Shown here: piece by piece, positions 27,258-58,079 of the stretch
How positions within the stretch are numbered: the first letter of the stretch is position 1
Layout: the number at the start of each line of letters is the position of its first letter
From: Escherichia phage Mangalyan
Sequence record: OR449013
DNA length: 64,000 nucleotides
Direction: 5' to 3' (one strand)
The notes under the pieces: generated by a model
What the model was told of the DNA's origin: nothing
The model's database searches: none
The model's input: the letters and a program-made list of their open reading frames with translations, nothing else
Made by a program: the position numbers and the translations under genes

Positions 27258-28379
27258 TTAGATAAAACGCTTAAACATAGAAGGTGATGAGATTGATGGA
27301 ATCACACAAGGAAGTGCTACCTCCTCTTTCTCCAGGAAATTAATCGCAGAAGCTACACAGTCGGCCCAGTCGTCTTTTCTGTTAAATGTTGATCTTTCCC
27401 CGTTGAATTTTTCAAGTTCAGTCAGAAATGCTTCCAAAGTATCAGGATGGAAACTGGATTTTACAATCCTCACCATTCCTTGTTGGGCAAGATTGGCAAA
27501 AGGTGAGAACCTTGTCAGTTTAGATTTGTTGGAAGGCATTGGGTCTTCTTCAACCCTAAACCCTTCGGCGAGCAAGGATCTGGAGGAGGTTAAGAACTCA
27601 CTCTTACCTGCCTGACCGGGGTCCACAGAGAATACGATTATACAATCATCACCATCAAACTGCGCCTGTTTCCTGATGATCACATCTCGTTCACCAGCCT
27701 TTTTACAAAACTTACCTTCCAGACCTGTGGAATACCTCCCGTCATCCACGTTCTCAGGACAATAATCACCGGACAGGTAATAAAAGCCGTCACTATCTTT
27801 ACTTACCTTAACACTGGCGGTAAAGTCAGGAAATTTATTACCGGAAGTTCTCTCGGTTCCTGCCTTATCCCATGCTCTGCAAGATACTGATCCAAGGGGT
27901 ACTCTATCGGCATCACGAAGGAAAGATCTTTGAAAATAGTTTGCACCCTCAGGCTTTGCAAACCAGTTACCATGGAGAAGCTGAGCTTTTTCCAGCTCTG
28001 GTAGACCTTCGAGGAAAGCAAGGTATTCTGGGTTGTCTCTCAAACAGACAGGATTATCGAATATTGTTGCGCCTATGAACGAGAATGACAACGGTCTTGG
28101 CTTGATCTCTACACCCAGTCCGTTAACCGTGGTGTATTTCTCTATCAACTCTTCCTTAGAGTCTCCCCAAATAAATTCACCGTCGCGTCGGATAAAATAT
28201 CTTTTCTTACCGCATTTCTCAGGATCTGGATACCCTTCATCGTCCAACCACCATCTAACCAGTTTGGCAAGCATGTGTTCTGAATCGGGGTTACAGCTGA
28301 TAACCATTCTTGATGGATACTTTGACTGAGATCGCAGACGAGACATCAGATAGTCTATCTGCTCCCATTCGAATTGTGT
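27258..28379 (-). CDS. terminase large subunit, exon 2 (nuclease domain)
   Basis: Frame continues terminase reading after the predicted intron; Asp-rich nuclease-domain motifs. Exon 5' boundary (28379) is predicted, not proven. Confidence 0.75.
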   Translation of the reverse strand, partial: TQFEWEQIDYLMSRLRSQSKYPSRMVISCNPDSEHMLAKLVRWWLDDEGYPDPEKCGKKRYFIRRDGEFIWGDSKEELIEKYTTVNGLGVEIKPRPLSFSFIGATIFDNPVCLRDNPEYLAFLEGLPELEKAQLLHGNWFAKPEGANYFQRSFLRDADRVPLGSVSCRAWDKAGTERTSGNKFPDFTASVKVSKDSDGFYYLSGDYCPENVDDGRYSTGLEGKFCKKAGERDVIIRKQAQFDGDDCIIVFSVDPGQAGKSEFLTSSRSLLAEGFRVEEDPMPSNKSKLTRFSPFANLAQQGMVRIVKSSFHPDTLEAFLTELEKFNGERSTFNRKDDWADCVASAINFLEKEEVALPCVIPSISSPSMFKRFI

Positions 28380-28698
28380 CGTTTATGTTCGGGCAAGGTC
28401 GCTAGTCTTGCCCCGCCATTTTCAGGCAGCTGCATGTCTCCATGCAGACCAGACTATATCTTATAAGCGACAAAAACCGCTTACCCTCCCGTTTCGAATC
28501 GCTTGATTCTACGTCTCTCGACTAGTCGTTGAACGTTCATCCTCTCGGATGCTTCGCTGCGGATTATCTAAATTAACACACTGTTACCATACCTTCGATC
28601 TCTCTTCGAAGCCTCTATAATGTTACCATGACAGGTTGGTGGTGTCAATAATAAAGATTTCCCCGCAATTAGGGAGGTTTTACGAGAGCTACAAATTA
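28380..28698 (-). ncRNA. group I intron (ORF-less) in terminase large subunit gene
   Basis: Minus-strand P (AATTGCGGGGAAA, 28656-28671), Q (AATCCGCAGC, 28551-28565), R (GTTCAACGACTAGTC, 28520-28534), S (AAGATATAGTCTGG, 28449-28462); P1 pairing exon GAGGGU with intron GCUCUC; in-frame TAA right after exon 1. Confidence 0.8.
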
Positions 28699-29124
28699 AC
28701 CCTCATCGAAGCAAACCATGGTGTACTCAAGCCCTTGGTGGTTAAGCTTATCTTGTACATACTCCATGTGGCAGTATTTTACAACAGCCCCCTTTTTGCT
28801 TCTATCCCACTTGCCAGTGTTCGGATCAAACCGTGGAAAAATGAACTTATGATCCTTCTCTCTGAACTTTGGCTTAATGTTTTCAGGCAGATCACTATAA
28901 ATAGCTACTGCTTTAGGCCATAGTCCACCCTCACCTTCCAACTGTGGGGTTGTTCTTCGGAACATAACCACAGAGCTGTGGGGGTCATCAATAATTTTAA
29001 GCGGCATCAACTGCAAGAGGAACGACTTGCCAGACCCAGCTGCACCGCCGATTACCAAAATATCTGCATCGTTTTCGAGGATCATCTTCTGCTTTTCAGA
29101 ACACGGTCCGTAAATCTTAGACAT
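28699..29124 (-). CDS. terminase large subunit, exon 1 (ATPase domain)
   Basis: Walker A GGAAGSGKS and Walker B VCFDEG; ORF terminates in intron. Confidence 0.8.
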
Positions 29125-30227: not shown

Positions 30228-30304
30228 TGGTCTCCACGGAGTGATTCGAACACTCGACCTCCTGATCCCAAATCAGGCGCTCTACCAAGCTGAGCTACGC
30301 GGAG
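30228..30304 (-). tRNA. tRNA-Pro (anticodon TGG)
   Basis: Cloverleaf folded by hand on minus strand: acceptor CTCCGCG/CGTGGAG, anticodon loop TTTGGGA, T-loop GTTCGAATC, encoded CCA. Confidence 0.8.
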
Positions 30305-30315
30305 TATTTACTATT

Positions 30316-30390
30316 TGGTGGCCCTGGGTGGAATTGAACCACCGTCTGGCGATTATGAGTCGCTTGCTTGAACCTTCCAGCTACAGGGCC
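30316..30390 (-). tRNA. tRNA-Met/fMet/Ile2 (anticodon CAT)
   Basis: Acceptor GGCCCTG/CAGGGCC, anticodon loop CTCATAA, T-loop TTCAATT, CCA encoded. Confidence 0.8.
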
Positions 30391-30391
30391 T

Positions 30392-30467
30392 TGGTGCTAA
30401 TGGCAGGACTTGAACCTGCAACCTATTGATTACAAATCAATTGCACTACCAATTGTGCTACATCAGC
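30392..30467 (-). tRNA. tRNA-Thr (anticodon TGT)
   Basis: Acceptor GCTGATG/CATTAGC, anticodon stem ATTGA/TCAAT with loop TTTGTAA, T-loop TTCAAGT, CCA encoded. Confidence 0.8.
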
Positions 30468-30472
30468 AAAAA

Positions 30473-30571
30473 GGTGCTAGGTGATGGAATCGAACCATCT
30501 ATGTATTCAACGACTACCTCGTCTATTTTCAGGATTAAAAATCCTCGCCCTTGCCAAAGGGCTTACCTAGC
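30473..30571 (-). ncRNA. atypical 99-nt tRNA-like gene (Lys-type UUU anticodon loop, ~30-nt variable region)
   Basis: Acceptor GCTAGGT/ACCTAGC, D-arm GCCC-TTTGGCAA-GGGC, anticodon loop TTTTTAA, canonical T-arm GATGG-TTCGATT-CCATC, but ~30 nt lie between anticodon stem and T-stem. Confidence 0.45.
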
Positions 30572-30669
30572 TCAGTATGTTGACCATGTTGCTAGTCGGC
30601 GATGACGACTGTAACATTTGATAATCCGGTTCTGCTTCCGGCTTTCGCTTAATTACAAGGTCAACAATG

Positions 30670-30760
30670 TGGCGGAGAGTAATGGAATCGAACCATCATC
30701 GAGTCATCCTCAATGGGACGGTTTTCAAGACCGCTTGAGCACCATTGCTCCCTACTCTCC
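30670..30760 (-). tRNA. tRNA-Ser (anticodon TGA), class II
   Basis: Acceptor GGAGAGT/ACTCTCC, anticodon loop CTTGAAA, long variable arm, T-loop GGTTCGATTCC, CCA encoded. Confidence 0.8.
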
Positions 30761-30874
30761 TTTATAAATTATACTGATAATGACACTGATTTTCGAGCAG
30801 TTAGTGACTAGTATAAACGACGATAAATATCAATGCCATTATCTGTATTATTTATGCATCTAAAAATATAAATT

Positions 30875-30961
30875 TGGTGGGGAGTGGTGGAGTCGAACCA
30901 CCCGAGTCGCAATGACAATAGATTTACAGTCTACACCGCTACCTCTACGGGATAACTCCCC
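30875..30961 (-). tRNA. tRNA-Tyr (anticodon GTA), class II
   Basis: Acceptor GGGGAGT/ACTCCCC, anticodon stem GTAGA/TCTAT with loop CTGTAAA, long variable arm, T-loop GGTTCGACTCC. Confidence 0.8.
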
Positions 30962-30965
30962 AATT

Positions 30966-31040
30966 TGGCACCCCGTACTGGACTCGAACCAGTGTCAACG
31001 GCTTAGAAGGCCGCTGCTTTATCCACTAAGCTAACAGGGC
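30966..31040 (-). tRNA. tRNA-Arg (anticodon TCT)
   Basis: Acceptor GCCCTGT/ACGGGGT, anticodon stem GCGGC/GCCGT with loop CTTCTAA, T-loop GGTTCGAGTCC. Confidence 0.8.
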
Positions 31041-50011: not shown

Positions 50012-50242
50012 ATGAGCCATAACTCCAAGTGGAAGGATCTTGGTTTTGCAAGTCGGGCAGAGTATGTTGGTTGGCTTTGGTTCAACGGCCTGACAAACGA
50101 TATTAAAATGTATGATGATGTTTATTATGACGAGTATACAGGTAAAATTATAAATATCTCTGTAGAAGAGGATACCTTTATCCAGCAAGATACTGATACC
50201 TGCCTTGATAAATACGTTAATGAAGTGGAGGAAGCAAATTGA
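50012..50242 (+). CDS. hypothetical protein
   Basis: ATG 50012 with AAGGTGG SD (track ORF starts upstream at 49934). Confidence 0.35.
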   Translation: MSHNSKWKDLGFASRAEYVGWLWFNGLTNDIKMYDDVYYDEYTGKIINISVEEDTFIQQDTDTCLDKYVNEVEEAN

Positions 50243-52554
50243 TCACCAAGGTAATTAAAAGCAACGGATGTGAGGTAGCATTCGATCCAGAACGTTTAAA
50301 TAAGGCAGCTATTTTCGGTGACGACGGTAACGGCAATTGGTCACATATTGCACTGGATGCATACAAACGACTGTATGATGGATGTACAACCAAAGAAGTT
50401 AACCAAGCTATCATAGACTCCTGTGTTAGCCGTAAAGACGAAGCACATTCCCGTATGGCTGGTCGTGTTCTTATTGGTCAGATTTATAAAGAGGCTTTTG
50501 GAGGGTTTACAAAGATCCCTTCCTTACCATCATTTTACAATACCATGGTTGAGAAAGGGTATTGGGAGGATATGGGCTATAGCTTTACCGAGCTAAACAC
50601 TTTAGACGCTGTTATTGACCACAGTAAAGATCTCGGTTATGGCTATGCAGTCCTTAAACAGTTTCGCGACAAATACGGGATCAAGGATACTCTTAAAGAC
50701 ACCTTGTTTGAATCTCCCCAGATGATGTTTATGGGGATAGCAATGGCTGTCATGAAGAATATGCCGAAAGAACGTCGTATCAACGATGTTGTAAAATTAT
50801 ACACTTATCTGTCCGACTTAAAGATCAATGCCCCGACACCGTACTTAAACGGGCTGCGCACAGGTAAGACAGGGTATGCATCTTGTTGTGTAATAAAAGC
50901 TGACGATACAGCAAAATCTATTGGTGTGGCACGTGAAGTTGCGTACACAATGACGGTTAACCAAGCAGGTATCGGCTACTATTTATCATCAAGATCTGCA
51001 GGCGATGGTGTTCGTGGTAACACTATTAAACACATGGGTAAGATTCCATATTATCGAGGTATTGATGCTGGGGTTAAGGAGAACAGACAACAATCACGTG
51101 GCGGTTCTGCAACAGTATCATTTCTTGCACTAGACCCGCAGATTGATGAGCTAATCCGTTTGAGAAACCCTATGACTGTTGCTTCAAAAAGAATCAACAC
51201 CATGGACTACTCCATCGGTATTAATAGGTCGTTTATCAACCGTGTGGCTAAGAATTTGGATTGGATGCTTGTTTCTTATAAGCACGCGCCTCAACTGCAT
51301 GAGGGTATCTTCACCATGTCTATGGAGGAGTTTGATGCAGAGGTTGATCGTATTGCTAAAGATGACAGTATTCCTAAAACATGGATCCGGGCCAGAGATC
51401 TTGCTGTTGAACTGATCACGCAGCGTACTGAGGTGGGAAGGCTGTATGTATACTGGACAGATGAGATGAATAGACATACACCTTTTAAAGATGTGATCTA
51501 TTCAAGTAACCTGTGTGCAGAAATAGCCCTCCCGACAAAAGGCTATTCAGATATGCGTAATATCTTCAAGTACGATGCTGATGATGGAGAGGTTGCATTG
51601 TGCTTCCTGTCATCTCTTGTAGCTGGGAGGGTTACTCCAGAGGAGTATGAGGATGTTGCATACTATACGGTGCTTATGATTGACAATGTTATGGAAATCA
51701 TGACATATCCGTATGAAAATATGGAAAGCACAGTTAAAAAACGCAGATCCATCGGGGTTGGCCTTACCAATGTTGCACATTTTATTGCCAGCCACAAGGT
51801 TACTTACGGATCTCCTGAAAGTAAACAGCTCGTTCACGATCTTGCAGAACTTCACAGCTACAGCTTGCATAAGGCAAGTTTACGGTTGGCAAAAGAGCGT
51901 GGTGTCTGCGAGTGGATGCATAAAACAAAATATCCAGAAGGTTGGTTACCAATCGACACCTATAACAAAGAGGTCGATAGCGTGGTGAAAGATCCTTCTC
52001 TTAAACAGGATTGGGAAGGGTTACGTAAAGAAATCATTGAAAATGGTGGGCTACGTAATAGCGTTCTTGAAGCATATATGCCTAATGAAAGCTCTTCGCT
52101 GGCAACAAACACCACTAACGGGGTCTATCCTGTCCGTGAGCACATTATCTTTAAAAAGTCGCCACAAGGGCAGGTGCTGTTTATCGTTCCTGACTATGAT
52201 GAGTTGAAAGAGTATTACACTTCGGCTTGGGACGTTGATACTAACGACATGATCGATATGTATGCTGTGATTCAAAAATTCACAGGTCAGGCAATCAGCG
52301 CGGATTTGTACATAGACTACACCAAGTTGAAAGATGGTAAAATTTCAATGAAGGAGCAGCTAGGGTACCTTATCCGTGCCACTAAATTCGGAATGAAGAC
52401 ATGGTATTATTTAAACTCTAGGGTTGGTGCTGGCGACTCCTTGGCAGAGGAACTTCATGCCAAGAAACAGGCTGAAGATGAAACCAGAAAGAACTATCCT
52501 TTGAATGCAGATAGTTCAGTTGAAGATCAGTATTGCGAAAGTTGTGCACTATAA
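50239..52554 (+). CDS. nrdA: ribonucleotide reductase class Ia large subunit
   Basis: ATP-cone VIKSNGCEVAFDPERL at N-terminus, 771 aa, followed by nrdB; TTG start. Confidence 0.85.
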   Translation: MITKVIKSNGCEVAFDPERLNKAAIFGDDGNGNWSHIALDAYKRLYDGCTTKEVNQAIIDSCVSRKDEAHSRMAGRVLIGQIYKEAFGGFTKIPSLPSFYNTMVEKGYWEDMGYSFTELNTLDAVIDHSKDLGYGYAVLKQFRDKYGIKDTLKDTLFESPQMMFMGIAMAVMKNMPKERRINDVVKLYTYLSDLKINAPTPYLNGLRTGKTGYASCCVIKADDTAKSIGVAREVAYTMTVNQAGIGYYLSSRSAGDGVRGNTIKHMGKIPYYRGIDAGVKENRQQSRGGSATVSFLALDPQIDELIRLRNPMTVASKRINTMDYSIGINRSFINRVAKNLDWMLVSYKHAPQLHEGIFTMSMEEFDAEVDRIAKDDSIPKTWIRARDLAVELITQRTEVGRLYVYWTDEMNRHTPFKDVIYSSNLCAEIALPTKGYSDMRNIFKYDADDGEVALCFLSSLVAGRVTPEEYEDVAYYTVLMIDNVMEIMTYPYENMESTVKKRRSIGVGLTNVAHFIASHKVTYGSPESKQLVHDLAELHSYSLHKASLRLAKERGVCEWMHKTKYPEGWLPIDTYNKEVDSVVKDPSLKQDWEGLRKEIIENGGLRNSVLEAYMPNESSSLATNTTNGVYPVREHIIFKKSPQGQVLFIVPDYDELKEYYTSAWDVDTNDMIDMYAVIQKFTGQAISADLYIDYTKLKDGKISMKEQLGYLIRATKFGMKTWYYLNSRVGAGDSLAEELHAKKQAEDETRKNYPLNADSSVEDQYCESCAL

Positions 52555-52593: not shown

Positions 52594-53682
52594 ATGGCTG
52601 TATTTAATGCTGAGAACACCGCTCATAAAACTGGTGACTATCCGCTGTTTCTAGGACAGCAAATGGGTATGTACGACTCTATCAACAAAAAATATCCACA
52701 ACTGTTTGAACTATACAAAAAACAAAAAGAACAAGACTGGGCAGAGGATGAAGTGGATTTGTCGCAATCTATTTCAGATTTTGTAACATGCTCAAAGTCA
52801 ACTTATGACGTGATGGTGCAGACCTTGATGTGGCAATGGGAGGCTGATAGCGTTGCGGCAAGATCTATCATTTGTCTGTTTTCACCATTTATCACCAATA
52901 GTGAGCTTTTCACTCTATTGATGAAACAGTCAGAGATTGAAGTTCTTCACGCACTAACTTACTCAGAGATTGTTAGACAATGCCTCCCCAATGCCCGTGA
53001 GATTATAGAAGAGATTCAGGAAAACCAAAACGTTCTGAGCAGATCCGGCGTTATTGTCAAATACATGCAAGAGCTTGAGGTTATTGGTGCAAAATACCGA
53101 CTGGATCCTTCTAGTGTTGAAGAAGATGTTGTGCGGAAATGCATTCTTAGAGCGCTTTTTGCACTTTTAGCTCTGGAAAGTATTGAGTTTATTGCAAGTT
53201 TTGCATGCACTTTCGCAGTAGCTGAGCAGGGTATCTTTGTTCAGGTGGCGCAGCTTGTTCAAAAAATCATGCTTGACGAAATGCTACATTCGAAAGGTGA
53301 TTTTGCCATCATTGATATCCTGCTTAATGATCCCGCATGGGAGAAAAGCTTCCTTGAGATAAAAGGGGAGTTAAAAGAGATTCTTGATGAAGTACGAACC
53401 AAAGAGTACGGTTGGAGTGACTATATTTTCAGCGAAGGAAGAGCGATTATAGGTCTTAACTCACCGTTGCTTAAAGAATGGGTTGACTATAACTGCTCAC
53501 CGATTTATGATTACTACGACATCGACAAAGACTTTGTGCCGCCAACAAAGGACCCTCTACCGTTTATGCAGGTGTGGATGAAACCTTCATTGCAACAGAC
53601 GGCGAACCAAGAAATGTCGAACACTGACTACCGCGTCAACACAACTGTTAACGACGCTGAAGAAGAAATTTGGGAGTTTTAA
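52594..53682 (+). CDS. nrdB: ribonucleotide reductase small subunit
   Basis: 362 aa, di-iron R2-type pattern (EIEVLHALTYSEIV), directly after nrdA. Confidence 0.8.
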   Translation: MAVFNAENTAHKTGDYPLFLGQQMGMYDSINKKYPQLFELYKKQKEQDWAEDEVDLSQSISDFVTCSKSTYDVMVQTLMWQWEADSVAARSIICLFSPFITNSELFTLLMKQSEIEVLHALTYSEIVRQCLPNAREIIEEIQENQNVLSRSGVIVKYMQELEVIGAKYRLDPSSVEEDVVRKCILRALFALLALESIEFIASFACTFAVAEQGIFVQVAQLVQKIMLDEMLHSKGDFAIIDILLNDPAWEKSFLEIKGELKEILDEVRTKEYGWSDYIFSEGRAIIGLNSPLLKEWVDYNCSPIYDYYDIDKDFVPPTKDPLPFMQVWMKPSLQQTANQEMSNTDYRVNTTVNDAEEEIWEF

Positions 53683-53685
53683 TAC

Positions 53686-53964
53686 ATGAGCTGTGAAAAA
53701 TCTTTTTTCTTTATTATTTACGGTAAAGATAACTGCCCACATTGTGTAAGAGCAAAAGAATTTGCAGTCAGTAAGGGTCTGCCTTTTGTATATAAGACAC
53801 TTGGCGAGGGTTACACAAAAGAAGAGCTTATTGAGAAGTGCAGTCCAATCGTACCCAGAACGTTGCCGCAGATCTTCTTAGAAAGTAATCTTGAAAGTGT
53901 CCATATAGGCGGTGCCGACGATTTCATCTCTTTTGTTAAGAATGGTTTTGGAGAGAAAAAGTGA
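53686..53964 (+). CDS. glutaredoxin (NrdH/Grx-like)
   Basis: CPHC redox motif near N-terminus; 92 aa; between nrdB and nrdD. Confidence 0.7.
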   Translation: MSCEKSFFFIIYGKDNCPHCVRAKEFAVSKGLPFVYKTLGEGYTKEELIEKCSPIVPRTLPQIFLESNLESVHIGGADDFISFVKNGFGEKK

Positions 53965-54821
53965 AAGTTGTAAAACGGGACGGTAGAGAAGAGGTCTATA
54001 ACGGAATTAAGGTGATCAAGGCGGCAGAGTCCGCCTTACTTGAGTCTGGACATACTGAAGAAGAAGCTTACCGGATCGCCTGCGCGGTTAATGAAGTTGT
54101 TGCTAACACTCTACCAACCGACCAGTGCACGATCTCTGTAAAAAATATCCATATCCTTGTTGAAGACGCTCTTATGGATATGGGTTTAAAATGTGCAGCC
54201 AGAGAATACATCCAGTATAGGCAGACAAGAGATAATAATAGAGAGGCAGGTGGAAAACTGCTTGCAGATATTAGTGGCTTCTTGGATCGCACTTGTGATG
54301 AATTTACAAAAGAAAACGCAAATAAGCCTACCAATCATGTACACACTCATCGTGACCTGCTTGCAGGCATCCTTAGCAAACACCTTGCATCAACACAGAT
54401 CCTGCCAGACCGTGTCTCAGAAGAGCACAATAGAGGCTTCATCCATGTGCATGATCTTGACTACTTGATCAGTCCGTTAACAAACTGTTGTTTGGTAAAT
54501 TATCCAGATATGTTGGAAAACGGATTCAACATTGGTAACGCCCATGTCAGTAAGCCGAAGTCAATAGGGGTTGCAACAACAATCCTTAGCCAAATCTCTA
54601 GTGCAGTAGCTAGTGCTCAATATGGTGGTCAGACTATGAGCCATATTGATCATTATCTGGCACAGTATGCTGAAGCGACCTATGAGAAGAACCTTAAATT
54701 TTGCCAGGAACATTGGTTGCCAGATGCTGAGACTGTTGCAATGCAAATGACAGATAAAGACGTATTTGACAGCATGCAGACTTTGCTCTATCAAATCAAT
54801 ACGTTAACTTCTGTCAACGGT
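53961..54821 (+). CDS. nrdD: anaerobic ribonucleoside-triphosphate reductase, exon 1
   Basis: ATP-cone VVKRDGREEVYNGIKV; ORF ends with TAA at the first intron codon. Confidence 0.8.
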
Positions 54822-54975
54822 TAACAAACTGGCCGTTGTAAAACTCTCCTAACCTCATAAGAGGGGTCGGTAAATCCGGCTAACGGGGAACGCTAAGGCG
54901 AAAGCTATGCCAATCCCGTGACTAGTTCTTACAGGAGTTGGAACGGTTGTAACGACTAACGAAAGGCAGAGATGC

Positions 54976-55004
54976 TTGACAAACATTTCTGAACCAAGTA
55001 GTGT
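54976..55004 (+). promoter_or_regulatory. promoter-like element inside intron upstream of homing endonuclease ORF (TTGACA-17-TAGTGT)
   Basis: TTGACAAA motif as in other phage promoters here; weak -10. Confidence 0.35.
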
Positions 55005-55045
55005 AGGGGTTAGTTGAAATACTAACTTCGAAATGGAGAGGCTCT

Positions 55046-55579
55046 ATGAAAAAGATCATTCTTAATGGTGAAGAATCAAACTATGTGATTGATGAGGTTG
55101 GAAACGTATACGGAAAACGTGGAATGCTACACCCAATATTGTGGGGAGGTTATGGAAAAGGTAAAAAGCATGTTAAACGCCGTTATATGTACTCTTTCAA
55201 CCACAAAGGTAAAAAGATTCGAATCCAAACCTCAAGGATTGTTGCCTTGTATTGTTTGCCGGATGTCCCAGAAGACCCTGAAAACTGGGAAGTGAATCAT
55301 AAAGATGGCAATACATTGAATGATCATCCGTCTAACCTAGAGTGGGTTTTGCCGGAAGATAATAAGAGACATGCTTTCCGAACAGGACTTTGTCCAGGTA
55401 AGTGCTATAGGAAAGTGCAGGCATACAAAGGGAAAACCTTGGTGGGTGAATATCCTTCACTCTATGCCTGTGCAAAAGCCTTAAATTTGAACGTAGGTAA
55501 CGTTCATAGGGCTATCGAAGGAAATGCCGAAGGTAAGCATCTCACAATAAAGGGTTATTATCTTATTGAAGTAGAGTAA
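55046..55579 (+). CDS. HNH homing endonuclease (intron-encoded)
   Basis: VNHKDGNTLNDHPSNLEWV...EDNKRH HNH motif; GGAGAGG SD; stop abuts the intron S element. Confidence 0.7.
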   Translation: MKKIILNGEESNYVIDEVGNVYGKRGMLHPILWGGYGKGKKHVKRRYMYSFNHKGKKIRIQTSRIVALYCLPDVPEDPENWEVNHKDGNTLNDHPSNLEWVLPEDNKRHAFRTGLCPGKCYRKVQAYKGKTLVGEYPSLYACAKALNLNVGNVHRAIEGNAEGKHLTIKGYYLIEVE

Positions 55580-55639
55580 GAGATAGTCTGGCCCTGTGGA
55601 AACACAGGGAGGAGACAGCAGACTCCATTCATCACATTG

Positions 55640-56881
55640 AGTTTAGGACTGGATACCTCGGTCTTTGGTAGAATGATTACCAAAAACTACTTGAAAGTCC
55701 ACAAAATGGGTCTTGGTGAAGAACGTATTACACCTGTATTCCCTAAAGTGCTGTTCTTCCTGGAAGAGGGTGTTAACATGAACCCTGGGGATCCTAACTA
55801 TGATTTGAAACGATTAGCTCTGGAATGCTGTGCAGAACGTATCTACCCTGACTTCGTATCTGTACCACTAAATAGAAAAGTGACAGGCTCGACAGATGGC
55901 AAAGTAACGAGCATGGGTTGCCGGAGTTTTCTTAGCAAATATAATGACTTGGAAACAGGTGAGGAAAAATACCTTGGCAGATTCAACTTGGGTGTTGTTA
56001 GCCTTAACCTGCCAATGATTGCGGCAAAAGCTAAGACGGAAGGTGTTGATTTCTTTGCAGTTCTTGACGAATACTTGGATCTTGCATACGAGGCTCACCT
56101 TGTAAGGGTTAACCGTCTAAAAGGAACAAAGGCAGGGCAGAACCCCATCATGTGGTGTGAAGGCGCTCTTGCTCGCCTGGATCCTGAAGAAAGTATTGAT
56201 AAACTCTTCTATGACGGGTACGCTTCCATCAGCATTGGGTATATTGGTGTGTATGAAACCTGTCAGATTTTGGGCAGAGAGGGTGACAAGGCTTTAGCTC
56301 TTGGAATCCTTCAGCACATGAGAGATGCTTGTGAGCGATACAAGAAGGAAAGTAGACTAGCGTTTAGCTTGTACGGCACCCCTTCTGAGAGTCTATGCTA
56401 TAAAGCTGCAACCTGTCTGGATCGTGAATATCCTGAAGTGTTGAAGCACGAGCATGAATATCTCACCAACAGTTTCCATCAGCCAGTATGGATCAATAGC
56501 TCTCCTTTTGATAAGTGGGCGTATGAGGAAGGTTTTGCTATGATCTCCTCTGGTGGCAACATCGGATATGTAGAGACACCGAATCTGAAAAACAACTTAG
56601 ATGCTTTAGAGGCTCTTGTTGACTTCGGGTATAAACACATTATGTATTTTGGTATTAACCAACCTGTGGATAAATGTCTCAAGTGTGGTTTCTCTGGGGA
56701 GTTCAGTGCAACAGCTAAAGGCTTTGTATGCCCAGAGTGTGGAAACCATGAAGAGGGAACGATCAGTGTGATCAGACGTGTGTCTGGATACCTTTCCAGT
56801 CCTAACTCCCGTCCTTATAATAAAGGTAAGCAAGCGGAAGTTATCGAGCGAGTTAAGCACTATGGAAGTTGTAGTTGCTGA
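55640..56881 (+). CDS. nrdD: anaerobic ribonucleoside-triphosphate reductase, exon 2
   Basis: Glycyl-radical motif RVSGYL and zinc ribbon CLKCGF...CPECG; predicted 3' splice site after G at 55639 (P10 AGUUU / AAACU). Confidence 0.8.
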   Translation, partial: SLGLDTSVFGRMITKNYLKVHKMGLGEERITPVFPKVLFFLEEGVNMNPGDPNYDLKRLALECCAERIYPDFVSVPLNRKVTGSTDGKVTSMGCRSFLSKYNDLETGEEKYLGRFNLGVVSLNLPMIAAKAKTEGVDFFAVLDEYLDLAYEAHLVRVNRLKGTKAGQNPIMWCEGALARLDPEESIDKLFYDGYASISIGYIGVYETCQILGREGDKALALGILQHMRDACERYKKESRLAFSLYGTPSESLCYKAATCLDREYPEVLKHEHEYLTNSFHQPVWINSSPFDKWAYEEGFAMISSGGNIGYVETPNLKNNLDALEALVDFGYKHIMYFGINQPVDKCLKCGFSGEFSATAKGFVCPECGNHEEGTISVIRRVSGYLSSPNSRPYNKGKQAEVIERVKHYGSCSC

Positions 56882-56945
56882 TACTTGACAAAAGCCACAA
56901 GGATGTGGCACCATACAGATGTTTAGGGAAGTTAGGAAACAAGAG

Positions 56946-58079
56946 ATGGCTAAATTATCGACAGAAGAGTTTATAGAGAAGGCGAAAATCATTCACGGTT
57001 ATAAATACAATTACAAGAAAACAGTGTACGTGGATTGCTATGCGAAGGTTTGCATTACCTGTCAAATCCATGGAGATTTTATGCAAGCACCTTGTCAACA
57101 CTTGCAAGGTCGTGGTTGTCCTTTTTGTGCAAAACTTTCTCGTGCTACAAAGTGTAATAAAGGTCTTAAATTTGTAGAAAGAGCCAAAGAAATCCATGGA
57201 GATAACTATGACTACTCTCTCGTATACTACAAGACTTGCAAAGATAAAGTAGAAATAATCTGCAATACTTGTGGAAATCACTTTACACAGACACCTGACA
57301 ATCATATAAATTTGAAAAGAGGTTGTCCAGTTTGCAAGGGGTCAAGAATCTCACAAAGCAAAACCAAACCTCATGAAAAGTGGGTTGAGGACATAGAGAA
57401 GAAAAATACTTATATTGAAATATTAGAAGAGATCACCACTGGGTGGAATAAAGTATTATGTCGTTGCAAAGTTTGCAACCACGAATGGTCAGCTACGCCT
57501 GTTATCCTTAAGCGTGGTCACGGCTGCCCCGGATGTGGCGGATCTATGAAAAAGACCACTGAAGAGTTTATCCAGGACGCTGTGGCTATCCACGGGAACA
57601 AGTATGATTACTCTAAAGTGAGGTATGTGAATTCACACATCAAGGTTACAATTGTTTGCACAGATCATGGAGATTTCTGTCAATCCCCTACCCAGCATTT
57701 AGGAGGGGGAGGGTGTCCTAAATGCACCAAAAGAGGATTTTTATCCCACGATTGTGGTAAACTTTACATTATGGTTGATGATCCGGAAGTGCCTACATTT
57801 ATGAAAATAGGTGTCAGTCATAATGAAAGTAAGCGAAGAGACCAGATACTTAAAAGTGCACAAAGATCTGGAGCTGGTATCTGCGATCTGTACATAGTGA
57901 AAACGTTGGAAGGATCAACTGAAAACATGCTGGCTGTAGAAAAATCTATGCACAAAGCCTTCAGTAAATATAAAATAAACTTCCCTGTAAAATTTGATGG
58001 TAGCACCGAATTCTTCTACTACAGGCCTGAGGTGTTCAGCACAGTGGAAGCAGCGTACAAAGAGATCTGCGGTAAATGA
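56946..58079 (+). CDS. zinc-ribbon repeat protein with C-terminal T5orf172/GIY-YIG-like domain (putative freestanding homing endonuclease)
   Basis: Three repeats of HG-x-Y-x-Y...C-x-HG-F...GCP-x-C and C-terminal KLYIMVDDP...MKIGVS; located between nrdD and nrdG. Confidence 0.4.
   Translation: MAKLSTEEFIEKAKIIHGYKYNYKKTVYVDCYAKVCITCQIHGDFMQAPCQHLQGRGCPFCAKLSRATKCNKGLKFVERAKEIHGDNYDYSLVYYKTCKDKVEIICNTCGNHFTQTPDNHINLKRGCPVCKGSRISQSKTKPHEKWVEDIEKKNTYIEILEEITTGWNKVLCRCKVCNHEWSATPVILKRGHGCPGCGGSMKKTTEEFIQDAVAIHGNKYDYSKVRYVNSHIKVTIVCTDHGDFCQSPTQHLGGGGCPKCTKRGFLSHDCGKLYIMVDDPEVPTFMKIGVSHNESKRRDQILKSAQRSGAGICDLYIVKTLEGSTENMLAVEKSMHKAFSKYKINFPVKFDGSTEFFYYRPEVFSTVEAAYKEICGK

What the first reader, a model, noticed from the sequence alone, without database searches (positions are those of the whole stretch)
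54822..55639. Group I intron with HNH homing endonuclease inside nrdD
The nrdD reading frame stops at 54822 right after ...TLTSVNG and resumes in the same frame at about 55640 (SLGLDTSVF...) through the glycyl-radical and zinc-ribbon motifs. The 818-nt insert has a P1 helix (exon CAACGGU with intron GCCGUUG), P/Q/R-like elements before the ORF, an S element abutting the endonuclease stop codon, and a GAAA-capped P9 hairpin. The endonuclease ORF sits in the P8-equivalent position. It shares IA-like core motifs with the terminase intron, suggesting two related introns in one genome.
Basis: partly seen in the sequence, partly recalled or inferred. Interest (0 to 1): 0.55.

Follow-up and report, generated by a model that had tools for sequence, protein, structure and literature searches.

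The report
Mobile self-splicing intron in phage nrdD

Summary
The finding is real and the reading is essentially right. nrdD is split by a T4-type (IA2-like) group I intron, and an I-HmuI-like HNH endonuclease gene sits in the P8 loop.

The correction concerns the 3' border. The intron is window 54822-55618 (797 nt), not 54822-55639 (818 nt). Exon 2 starts at 55619 (QTPFITLSLG...). Three results support this:
- Intron-less sister phages are colinear with this junction.
- The spliced protein aligns without gaps to T4 NrdD.
- The GenBank/RefSeq protein of phage WalterGehring (QXV85697.1) carries the same junction in a 99.9% identical copy of the intron.

All core helices (P1, P3-P9) are supported by compensatory changes in nine sequences, T4 included. 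Rfam RF00028 nevertheless scores the intron only 27.7 bits, below its cut-off of 50. This lineage carries two extra hairpins between the 5' strand of P3 and J3/4. A short helix between the intron tail and exon 2 encloses the 3' splice site.

Among roughly 118 close relatives (vequintaviruses), about 27 carry the intron with the endonuclease gene, 14 carry an ORF-less version, and the rest have no intron. The intron is far less diverged than the exons, which fits homing.

[quoted passage not shown] Splicing and cleavage were not tested. The element is ordinary and of low interest; the only mildly new point is the structural sub-lineage.

The parts
53961..54821 (+). nrdD exon 1 (287 codons: ATP-cone plus the N-terminal part of NrdD); ends ...SVNG with GGU
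   Evidence: ORF list. Pfam ATP-cone and NRDD positions 1-154. Colinear with intron-less alleles up to 54821.
54822..55618 (+). Group I intron, 797 nt. It begins with UAA, an in-frame stop for exon 1, and ends with G55618 (the terminal, omega G).
   Evidence: Borders come from intron-less alleles, Pfam and T4 NrdD alignments, and the identical junction in QXV85697.1. RF00028 scores 27.7 bits. Covariation.
54815..54838 (+). P1: exon CAACGGU (54815-54821) pairs with the internal guide GCCGUUG (54832-54838). U54821.G54832 is the wobble pair at the 5' splice site. CUG 54829-54831 could form a 3-bp P10 with exon-2 CAG.
   Evidence: Sequence. Four of seven P1 pairs have compensatory changes, for example exon C-to-A with guide G-to-U in bov10K2.
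54844..54849 (+). P3 5' strand, CUCUCC
   Evidence: Pairs with GGAGAG 55035-55040. Six of seven P3 pairs covary across nine sequences.
54853..54880 (+). Two extra hairpins between the P3 5' strand and J3/4. I call them P3.1 (CCUC/GAGG, 54853-54864) and P3.2 (GUCGG/CCGGC, 54866-54880). They are followed by UA(A) and P4.
   Evidence: 100% paired, with four covarying pairs each, in the nine-sequence alignment. 92.7% and 97.9% paired in 59 distinct metagenomic relatives. Absent from the T4 nrdD intron and the terL intron.
54883..54948 (+). P4-P5-P6 domain: P4 ACGGGG/UCCCGU, P5 with a GAAA loop, P6 GACU/GGUU, P6a GUUCUUAC/GUUGGAAC
   Evidence: RF00028 partial match at 54883-54959.
54954..54958 (+). 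P7 5' strand GACUA, within the R element GUAACGACUA
   Evidence: Pairs with UAGUC 55584-55588. Invariant in all nine sequences and identical to T4 nrdD P7.
54967..55026 (+). P7.1 (CAGAGAUG/CAUUUCUG, 54967-54991), conserved GUAGGG (55003-55008) and P7.2 (GUUAGU/ACUAAC, 55009-55026). These are the peripheral helices typical of subgroup IA.
   Evidence: Six of seven P7.2 pairs covary. Same order as in the T4 nrdD intron.
55035..55040 (+). P3 3' strand GGAGAG. It doubles as the Shine-Dalgarno sequence of the endonuclease ORF.
   Evidence: AUG starts at 55046.
55042..55047 (+). P8 5' strand CUCUAU; it overlaps the AUG of the ORF (55046-55048)
   Evidence: Pairs with GUAGAG 55571-55576. All six P8 pairs covary.
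55046..55579 (+). HNH homing endonuclease ORF, 177 aa, I-HmuI-like, located in the P8 loop
   Evidence: Pfam HNH_3 29.3 bits (cut-off 24.8) plus a weak I-HmuI NUMOD-like match. phrog_59 E = 8.8e-27. PDB 1U3E I-HmuI, residues 8-160 against 8-159, E = 2.6e-4. Relatives at 52-86% identity; the four looked up (52-65%) all lie inside nrdD.
55571..55576 (+). P8 3' strand GUAGAG, which is the last two codons of the ORF. The UAA stop follows and starts J8/7.
55584..55588 (+). P7 3' strand UAGUC, within the S element AAGAGAUAGUCU
   Evidence: RF00028 alignment.
55592..55609 (+). P9 hairpin CCCUGUG-GAAA-CACAGGG
   Evidence: Six of seven pairs covary.
55611..55626 (+). Helix between the intron tail and exon 2 that encloses the 3' splice site: GGAG 55611-55614 pairs with CUCC 55623-55626; the loop is ACAG|CAGA.
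   Evidence: 100% paired in six sequences. Two of five pairs change on both sides, tracking synonymous exon codons. Its role is inferred.
55619..56881 (+). nrdD exon 2 (420 codons plus stop: the rest of the NRDD barrel, the glycyl-radical domain and the C-terminal Cys4 zinc site)
   Evidence: Pfam. Gapless alignment to T4 NrdD 1H78 across the junction.

Best explanation
Window 54822-55618 is a mobile, self-splicing group I intron of the T4-type IA2 architecture. It interrupts nrdD between the codons for Gly287 (GGU) and Gln288 (CAG), inside the conserved NGQTPF motif.

Inferred mechanism, by analogy with proven phage IA2 introns:
1. A ribosome translating exon 1 stops at UAA, the first three intron bases, so it does not run into the ribozyme.
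2. The RNA folds into P1 (with U54821.G54832), P3-P8, P4-P6 and P7.
3. A free guanosine attacks after U54821.
4. G55618 then occupies the G site, and the exons are ligated to GGU|CAG.
5. The ligated mRNA encodes a 707-aa NrdD.

The P8 loop encodes an I-HmuI-like HNH endonuclease. Its ribosome-binding site is the 3' strand of P3, and its AUG lies in the 5' strand of P8. Translation of the endonuclease and folding of the ribozyme therefore exclude each other.

In mixed infections the enzyme is expected to cut, probably nick, intron-less nrdD alleles near the insertion site. Repair from the intron-bearing genome would then copy the intron in (homing).

Shown here: the borders, the fold, the endonuclease family, and the patchy distribution among relatives. 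Inferred: catalysis, cleavage, and homing.
For: Borders:
- About 77 intron-less vequintavirus records are colinear with exon 1 (to 54821) joined to exon 2 (from 55619). Five were read directly.
- The spliced protein matches Pfam NRDD 1-562 in one stretch at 534.7 bits.
- It aligns without gaps to T4 NrdD (...SSNGQTPFVTITFG...).
- The same junction is present in the GenBank/RefSeq protein QXV85697.1 / YP_011997805.1.

Fold:
- In a nine-sequence alignment, 98.7% of cells are paired, against 35-47% when partners are slid by 1-3 columns.
- 47 of 73 pairs carry compensatory changes.
- The order of helices and the junction motifs match the T4 nrdD intron: UAAAA, GUAGGG, CGAAAYG, AAGAKAUAGUCU.
- RF00028 aligns full length to the ORF-less homologue (29.8 bits, E = 9e-6) and scores 27.7 bits in the window.

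Splice-site signals:
- All seven intron-bearing nrdD sequences read (window, L001, L006, L007, L017, L018, L022; L007 is in another gene) have U at position -1. The window and L001 were read, L006, L017, L018 and L022.
- All five intron-less alleles read have G there (GGG|CAA).
- Every nrdD lineage ends the intron in G.

Endonuclease.

Site specificity: the four relatives looked up (52-65% identity) lie in nrdD, and the three whose junctions were read use the same NG|QTPF site.

Mobility:
- Roughly 27 records carry the intron with the ORF, 14 carry the ORF-less form, and about 77 have no intron.
- In FV3 the intron is 97.2% identical while the whole region is 94.5% identical. In OR062525 the figures are 99.3% and 95.4%. 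This implies exons about 93.5-94% identical.
Against: - There are no transcript or biochemical data. Splicing, endonuclease activity and homing were not observed.
- RF00028 stays below its gathering score of 50 bits in every member of this lineage (27-33 bits).
- J3/4 is not the canonical 3 nt. It carries two hairpins, so tertiary contacts cannot simply be copied from T4 or Twort.
- P10 is only 3 bp in the window and is not conserved in relatives.
- In the endonuclease, the residue before the catalytic His is Asn (VNH), where I-HmuI has Asp. It is Asn in all three relatives read, but its effect on metal binding is unknown.
- The structural alignment used was fitted by hand to the proposed structure.
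Confidence: 0.9

Rival explanations
1. nrdD is a split gene with no RNA splicing. A free-standing HNH endonuclease gene has inserted, and the two NrdD fragments are translated separately and assemble after translation, as reported for nrdA and mobE in Aeromonas phage Aeh1.
For: - Most public records annotate two separate nrdD CDSs with an HNH gene between them.
- Split, non-spliced ribonucleotide reductase genes exist in phages (papers read).
- RF00028 is below threshold.
Against: - Exon 2 has no usable start. The conserved QTPFITL codons lie upstream of the first possible start codon (UUG at 55637), and the AGGAG at 55610 is 23 nt from it.
- A 257-nt ORF-less version occupies the same site in 14 phages, so the non-coding flanks form a unit of their own.
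- The flanks fold into a covarying group I core with a U.G pair at the 5' border and a G at the 3' border.
Confidence: 0.04
2. It is a group I intron, but a decaying one. Splicing, the endonuclease, or both are no longer functional. nrdD would then be effectively a pseudogene in these phages, which is tolerable because anaerobic reductase is dispensable in the laboratory.
For: - No functional data are available.
- RF00028 scores are low.
- The Asp-to-Asn change next to the catalytic His.
- ORF-less derivatives exist, so loss of the endonuclease gene may occur.
Against: - Both exons stay intact and conserved in all 27 records carrying the intron with its ORF, and in all 14 ORF-less records.
- All core helices keep pairing through compensatory changes.
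- The ORF is intact at 52-86% identity in separate lineages, with the VNH...N...N motif kept in the three read.
- The intron is less diverged than the exons, as expected for recent spread.
Confidence: 0.06
3. One reading: an 818-nt intron at 54822-55639 with exon 2 starting at AGU (SLGLD...).
For: G55639 precedes an in-frame codon, and the mechanical ORF call begins at UUG 55637.
Against: - These borders remove seven conserved residues (QTPFITL) and lose 25.5 bits on Pfam NRDD.
- Intron-less alleles contain those 21 nt as exon.
- The ORF-less intron has A at the equivalent of 55639, and shows synonymous changes across the QTPF codons.
- The protein with this junction is absent from a collection of about 15 billion proteins, whereas the corrected one is a deposited protein.
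Confidence: 0.01

Closest known systems
Phage T4 nrdD (sunY) group IA2 intron with I-TevII
   Same: - Same host gene and the same conserved region.
- Same order of helices: P1, P3, P4-P6, P7, P7.1, P7.2, P3', P8, P7', P9.
- Identical P7 (GACUA/UAGUC).
- Shared junction motifs UAAAA, GUAGGG, CGAAAYG and AAGAKAUAGUCU.
- UAA as the first three intron bases.
   Different: - The insertion site is 32 nt upstream in T4 (GAG U|AU GAA, against AAC GGU|CAG ACU).
- T4 has a canonical P3-UAA-P4 junction without the two hairpins.
- The T4 ORF is a GIY-YIG enzyme placed after P9, not an HNH enzyme in P8.
- T4 scores 105.3 bits on RF00028, against 27.7 here.
- T4 is not detected by the 5'-domain model of this lineage.
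Bacillus phage SPO1 DNA-polymerase intron endonuclease I-HmuI (PDB 1U3E)
   Same: - The ORF product aligns over nearly its whole length (8-160 against 8-159 of 174 aa), with the HNH His and both Asn positions kept.
- Both are intron-encoded in a phage DNA-metabolism gene.
- From my own knowledge, not tested here: I-HmuI nicks one strand.
   Different: - The match is distant (phmmer E = 2.6e-4).
- Different host gene and different phage group.
- Asn replaces the Asp that precedes the catalytic His.
- The target site and the nick-versus-double-strand-cut chemistry are unknown here.
terL (large terminase) group I intron of rV5-like phages; present in this window at 28430-28708, minus strand
   Same: - Same genome and same IA2 layout.
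- Same UAAAA-P3-UAA start and the same AAGAUAUAGUCU element.
- Described for rV5 (PMC3606486).
- RF00028 83.8 bits. It is flanked by the two halves of Terminase_6N.
   Different: - No ORF in this copy and no P3.1/P3.2 hairpins.
- Different P4 sequence.
- Only a 15-nt local match to the nrdD intron.
- Closer to the T4 nrdD intron than to its neighbour in the same genome.
HNH-containing introns of Pectobacterium phage CB7 (Vequintavirinae, Certrevirus)
   Same: Same phage subfamily. HNH genes lie inside introns of terL, the DNA polymerase gene and the nrdA/nrdB genes, and splicing of most was shown by RT-PCR (PMC7344957).
   Different: nrdD of CB7 is not reported as interrupted. No sequence comparison was made here.

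Membership tests
Group I intron (Rfam RF00028) | Score at or above the curated gathering score (50 bits) | tested here: not met
   27.7 bits in the window. The ORF-less homologue scores 29.8 bits over the full model length, E = 9e-6. Other members score 27-33 bits. The T4 nrdD intron scores 105.3 bits.
Group I intron | P1 formed by the end of the 5' exon and an internal guide, with a U.G wobble at the cleavage site | tested here: met
   U54821.G54832. P1 has 7 bp and four pairs covary. U at position -1 in every intron-bearing sequence read, G in all five intron-less alleles read.
Group I intron | Conserved core of P3-P8 and P4-P6 domains with the P3/P7 pseudoknot | tested here: met
   Thirteen helices. 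98.7% of cells paired, against 35-47% for slid controls. 47 of 73 pairs are compensatory (the alignment was hand-fitted). An independent check of the 5' domain on 59 distinct sequences gives 91.8% paired.
Group I intron | Terminal G (omega G) at the 3' splice site, and exon ligation that restores the host reading frame | tested here: met
   G55618. The ligated exons are colinear with intron-less alleles and with T4 NrdD. The intron ends in G in all nrdD lineages.
Group I intron | Guanosine-dependent self-splicing | not testable with these tools
   Requires in vitro transcription and GTP labelling, or RT-PCR from infected cells.
Subgroup IA2 (T4 td / nrdD, Twort type) | P7.1 and P7.2 between the 5' strand of P7 and the 3' strand of P3 | tested here: met
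   P7.1 at 54967-54991 and P7.2 at 55009-55026, separated by GUAGGG as in T4. P7.2 covaries.
Subgroup IA2 | The P3 5' strand joined to P4 by a short (about 3 nt) J3/4 | tested here: not met
   Two hairpins (54853-54880) lie between the P3 5' strand and the UA(A) before P4. The T4 nrdD and terL introns have P3-UAA-P4.
HNH homing endonuclease, I-HmuI type | HNH_3 domain above the Pfam cut-off, with the catalytic His and Asn residues | tested here: met
   PF13392 29.3 bits against a cut-off of 24.8. In the alignment, H85, N97 and N106 align with the His and the two Asn of the I-HmuI HNH motif. N84 stands where I-HmuI has Asp.
HNH homing endonuclease, I-HmuI type | Full-length architecture: N-terminal DNA-binding part, HNH domain, C-terminal NUMOD/helix-turn-helix | tested here: inconclusive
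   End-to-end phmmer alignment to 1U3E at E = 2.6e-4. The I-HmuI NUMOD-like Pfam match is below its cut-off (18.4 against 27 bits). No structure was predicted.
Homing (mobile) intron | Presence/absence polymorphism at one exact site among close relatives | tested here: met
   About 27 records with the intron and ORF, 14 with the ORF-less form, and about 77 intron-less, all at 90% or higher nrdD identity. The intron is 97-99.9% identical where exons are about 94% identical.
Homing (mobile) intron | Site-specific cleavage of the intron-less allele and biased inheritance in crosses | not testable with these tools
   Needs a cleavage assay and mixed infections.
T4 nrdD intron (same element?) | Same insertion site and close sequence similarity | tested here: not met
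   The sites are 32 nt apart. The best local similarity is 27 nt at 81%.

The most novel reading that the evidence does not exclude
The intron may belong to a widespread phage sub-lineage of IA2-like group I introns that has not been formally described.

Its features:
- Two conserved hairpins are inserted between the 5' strand of P3 and J3/4.
- In the nrdD members, a covarying helix between the intron tail and exon 2 holds the 3' splice site in its loop, where a conserved P10 would normally act.

All six members scored stay under the Rfam gathering score. That would fit most of the public records listed annotating nrdD as two or three separate genes. The lineage would then be a systematically missed class of introns, and a natural test of how much J3/4 can be remodelled.

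I could not check whether the RNA literature already describes this variant.
Probability: 0.3. Interest if true: 0.35.

Novelty: already known. Interest (0 to 1): 0.2.

Why it matters
Practically, the result corrects gene models. In this phage group nrdD is one gene encoding a 707-aa enzyme, not two genes. The splice junction is GGU|CAG at 54821/55619.

It adds one more case of homing elements crowding the conserved motifs of phage ribonucleotide reductase genes:
- T4 carries a different intron 32 nt upstream.
- Relatives of this phage carry further inserts elsewhere in nrdD.

It also shows that Rfam's single group I model, at its curated threshold, misses a whole phage lineage of these introns.

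None of this changes current understanding of group I introns or homing.

Tried and rejected
1. Rfam at the gathering threshold found no intron at this locus; it found only the terL intron and tRNAs. The relaxed search gave a mis-registered 27.7-bit match that borrowed ORF sequence for the 5' half, plus an 11.3-bit fragment over P4-P7. I therefore used the ORF-less homologue instead.

2. RNAalifold on a plain MAFFT alignment of five diverged sequences recovered P1, P3.1, P3.2, P4, P5 and P9. It mis-aligned the 3' half and proposed a spurious long-range helix. I replaced it with a hand-registered alignment, padded with N so that MAFFT kept the columns.

3. I first considered the 3' strand of the hairpin next to P4 as the P3 5' strand, as the RF00028 alignment suggested. 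I rejected this because no complementary 3' partner exists, whereas CUCUCC/GGAGAG covaries in all lineages.

4. P9.0 (two bases before the terminal G pairing with J7/9) can be drawn in each lineage, but in different registers. I left it as tentative.

5. Alternative splice pairs (5' site after G54820 or after U54822) either break the frame or lack a terminal G. Intron-less alleles leave no ambiguity.

6. Literature searches for a description of a vequintavirus nrdD intron, and for 'P3.1/P3.2', found nothing relevant. The rV5 genome paper mentions only the terminase introns.

7. A full-length covariance model of about 300 positions was not attempted, because calibration time would probably exceed the limit. 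A 124-position model of the 5' domain was used instead.
Full report
**What the window is.** The 2.9-kb nrdD region is 98.6% identical to Escherichia phage WalterGehring and 94-98% identical to other rV5-like myophages of the genus Vequintavirus. It lies in a ribonucleotide reductase cluster. By their position and the record annotations, the neighbouring ORFs are nrdA (50239-52554), nrdB (52594-53682) and a glutaredoxin (53686-53964), followed by nrdD.

**Checking the observation.** An ORF from 53961 ends with TAA at 54822-54824, directly after ...TLTSVNG. It matches an ATP-cone and positions 1-154 of the Pfam NRDD profile. A downstream ORF matches NRDD 164-562 plus the glycyl-radical domain. 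Between them lies a 177-codon ORF with an HNH_3 domain. So the split is real.

This is the conserved NrdD motif that follows NG. It is preceded by G55618.

Joining 54821 to 55619 gives one uninterrupted NRDD match (1-562, 534.7 bits). The corrected protein also aligns without gaps to T4 NrdD (...LFSSNGQTPFVTITFG...) and to a second solved NrdD.

**Direct proof of the borders.** A 400-nt query made of exon 1 (to 54821) joined to exon 2 (from 55619) matches many vequintaviruses as one uninterrupted 400-nt stretch. Five such intron-less alleles were read (MaxTheCat, A6-1, DrSchubert, SYGMH1, ECP26) and are colinear with the join. The insert is therefore exactly 54822-55618, or 797 nt.

All five intron-less alleles read GGG|CAA at the site. 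Intron-bearing alleles read GGU|CAG (this window) or GGU|CAA (the ORF-less form). Both changes are synonymous. The U is the base that forms the U.G wobble in P1.

The protein translated from the WalterGehring locus with this junction is identical to the deposited QXV85697.1 / YP_011997805.1. That CDS is annotated as a join. The intron, with its correct borders, is thus already in public annotation. Most of the other records listed show two or three separate nrdD CDSs.

**Is it a group I intron?** Rfam at its curated threshold reports nothing at this locus. With relaxed filters RF00028 gives 27.7 bits. The 3' part (AAGAGAUAGUCU plus the GAAA-capped hairpin) is aligned correctly, but the 5' part is borrowed from ORF sequence.

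Fourteen relatives carry a 257-nt ORF-less version of the same intron at the same site, about 86% identical in the shared parts. RF00028 aligns to this version over its full length, at 29.8 bits and E = 9e-6.

I collected further relatives:
- Three metagenomic nrdD genes whose introns carry HNH ORFs 52-65% identical to this one (L017, L018, L022).
- One more ORF-less nrdD copy (L006), and introns in other genes (L007, L009).

A hand-registered alignment of these sequences with the T4 nrdD intron shows the following:
- 98.7% of 549 cells form standard pairs, against 35-47% when the 3' partners are slid by one to three columns.
- 47 of 73 pairs have changes on both sides.
- P1, P3, P6a, P7.2, P8 and P9 each have four to six covarying pairs.
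- P4 and P7 are almost invariant, and P7 is identical to T4.

The caveat is that I fitted this alignment to the structure.

The helix order and the junction motifs (UAAAA, GUAGGG, CGAAAYG, AAGAKAUAGUCU) match the T4 nrdD intron, whose self-splicing is established (background in the papers read). I therefore accept the group I assignment, with an IA2-like architecture, even though the Rfam cut-off is not met.

**Anatomy in window coordinates.**
- P1: 54815-54821 with 54832-54838.
- P3: 54844-54849 with 55035-55040.
- Two extra hairpins: 54853-54864 and 54866-54880.
- P4: 54883-54888 with 54914-54919.
- P5: 54892-54910, with a GAAA loop.
- P6 and P6a: 54920-54948.
- P7: 54954-54958 with 55584-55588.
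- P7.1: 54967-54991.
- P7.2: 55009-55026.
- P8: 55042-55047 with 55571-55576.
- P9: 55592-55609.
- Terminal G: 55618.

**Features that depart from the standard picture.**

*First: two hairpins before P4.* In T4 nrdD and in the terL intron of this window, the 5' strand of P3 is followed by UAA and then P4. Here two hairpins, followed by a second UA(A), are inserted. Both are fully paired with four covarying pairs each in the nine-sequence set.

I built a covariance model of this 5' domain. I searched it against 81 viral-metagenome loci chosen by the P4 signature. It found 79 matches, 59 of them distinct. On these the two hairpins are 92.7% and 97.9% paired, with many pair types. The model does not detect the T4 nrdD intron or the terL intron.

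All six members scored on RF00028, including this window, get 27-33 bits, while T4 gets 105.3 bits. The extra hairpins are a plausible cause of the low scores, but I did not test that.

*Second: a helix around the 3' splice site.* The intron tail GGAG (55611-55614) pairs with exon-2 CUCC (55623-55626), leaving the 3' splice site in an 8-nt loop. The pairing tracks the synonymous codon choice of Thr-Pro in other lineages: GGGG/CCCC, GGCG/CGCC and GGGCA/UGCCC. It is 100% paired, with two of five pairs compensatory. P10 is only 3 bp in the window and is not conserved elsewhere. I suggest the helix helps present the 3' splice site; this is inference.

**The endonuclease.** The 177-aa ORF passes the Pfam HNH_3 cut-off and matches phrog_59 at E = 8.8e-27. 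It aligns end to end with I-HmuI, the intron-encoded HNH enzyme of Bacillus phage SPO1 (1U3E, E = 2.6e-4). The HNH His (H85) and two Asn residues (N97, N106) are kept. N84 replaces the Asp that precedes the His in I-HmuI, and the same Asn is present in the three relatives read.

The ORF's Shine-Dalgarno sequence GGAGAGG is the 3' strand of P3. Its AUG lies in the 5' strand of P8. Its last two codons form the 3' strand of P8, and its UAA starts J8/7. The last two codons covary with the bases before the AUG: GUAGAG, GUAAGU, AUAGAU and AUAAAU. Folding and translation should therefore exclude each other, as is known for other phage intron ORFs (my own knowledge).

The intron's first three bases, UAA, stop the exon-1 ribosome. 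This is so in every lineage read, including T4.

**Evidence for mobility.** About 118 records have nrdD at 90% or higher identity. Of these, 27 carry the intron with the ORF, 14 carry the ORF-less form, and the rest carry no intron.

Copies with the ORF are 97.2-99.9% identical, although the whole region falls to 94.5% identity. The paired figures are 97.2% against 94.5% for FV3 and 99.3% against 95.4% for OR062525. By arithmetic this implies exons about 93.5-94% identical. In cultured phages the protein occurs at 95% or higher identity only in those 27 genomes, and the next relatives are at about 40% or less. All this fits recent homing, but it is not proof.

**Comparison with known elements.** The T4 nrdD intron is the closest characterised relative in host gene and architecture. 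It sits 32 nt upstream (GAG U|AU GAA), carries a GIY-YIG enzyme after P9, and shows little primary similarity.

The terL intron of this window (RF00028 83.8 bits, flanked by the two Terminase_6N halves) is the element described in the rV5 genome paper. It shares subgroup motifs with the nrdD intron but only a 15-nt local match. It is closer to the T4 nrdD intron, with 36 nt at 92% identity. 'Two related introns' therefore holds only at subgroup level.

I found no paper describing the vequintavirus nrdD intron.

**Verdict.** This is a real, correctly interpreted and ordinary element that public records already annotate. The main value added here is the corrected 3' splice site, a covariation-backed structure, and the observation that it belongs to a phage intron lineage with a remodelled J3/4 that Rfam's threshold misses. 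Splicing, cleavage and homing remain untested.

Noticed in passing
window 28430-28708 (minus strand): A second group I intron without an ORF splits the large terminase gene. RF00028 scores it 83.8 bits. Exon ORFs at 28699-29124 and 27261-28346 match Terminase_6N positions 2-104 and 117-211. Its P7'-P9 segment is 92% identical over 36 nt to the T4 nrdD intron.
   Followed up: partly
window 56919-58079 (plus strand): A 386-aa ORF with DUF4379 zinc-finger repeats and a T5orf172 (GIY-YIG-like) domain lies directly downstream of nrdD. It matches phrog_681 'endonuclease'. WalterGehring annotates it as a putative homing endonuclease. MaxTheCat and bov10K2 have only short ORFs at this position. It is probably a free-standing homing endonuclease gene.
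   Followed up: partly
L005 (phage phita32) 2268-3017; also phages C2 and JEP1; L006 2246-2485; L017 3350-3590: Some relatives have a second insert about 270 nt further into nrdD. In phita32 it carries a 170-aa ORF. In L006 and L017 it is an ORF-less group I intron that scores 70.5 and 77.3 bits on RF00028. This window lacks the second insert.
   Followed up: partly
L018 1153-1773 and L019 1002-1622; L020 899-1211: Metagenomic nrdD genes that carry this intron have additional interruptions. One is a 206-aa HNH ORF between the ATP-cone segment and the next NrdD segment. In L020 there is a further split downstream. nrdD can therefore carry at least three insertion sites.
   Followed up: no
L016 (phage phi92 nrdD): phi92 is intron-less at the NG|QTPF site, but its nrdD is annotated as a 'spliced variant' (a joined CDS) with an interruption elsewhere.
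   Followed up: no
window 30231-31040 (minus strand): A cluster of six tRNA genes, found by Rfam at the gathering threshold.
   Followed up: no
search results: About 20 records named 'Campylobacter phage' with host Campylobacter jejuni are 94-99% identical to these E. coli vequintaviruses across nrdD. The host labels look doubtful.
   Followed up: no
L008 3000-3650 (minus strand): A member of the same intron lineage in an unidentified gene also carries an HNH-type ORF after the 3' strand of P3 (motif ...DHINGDKSDN...NLRWVS). Endonuclease ORFs may therefore have entered the P8 region of this lineage more than once.
   Followed up: no
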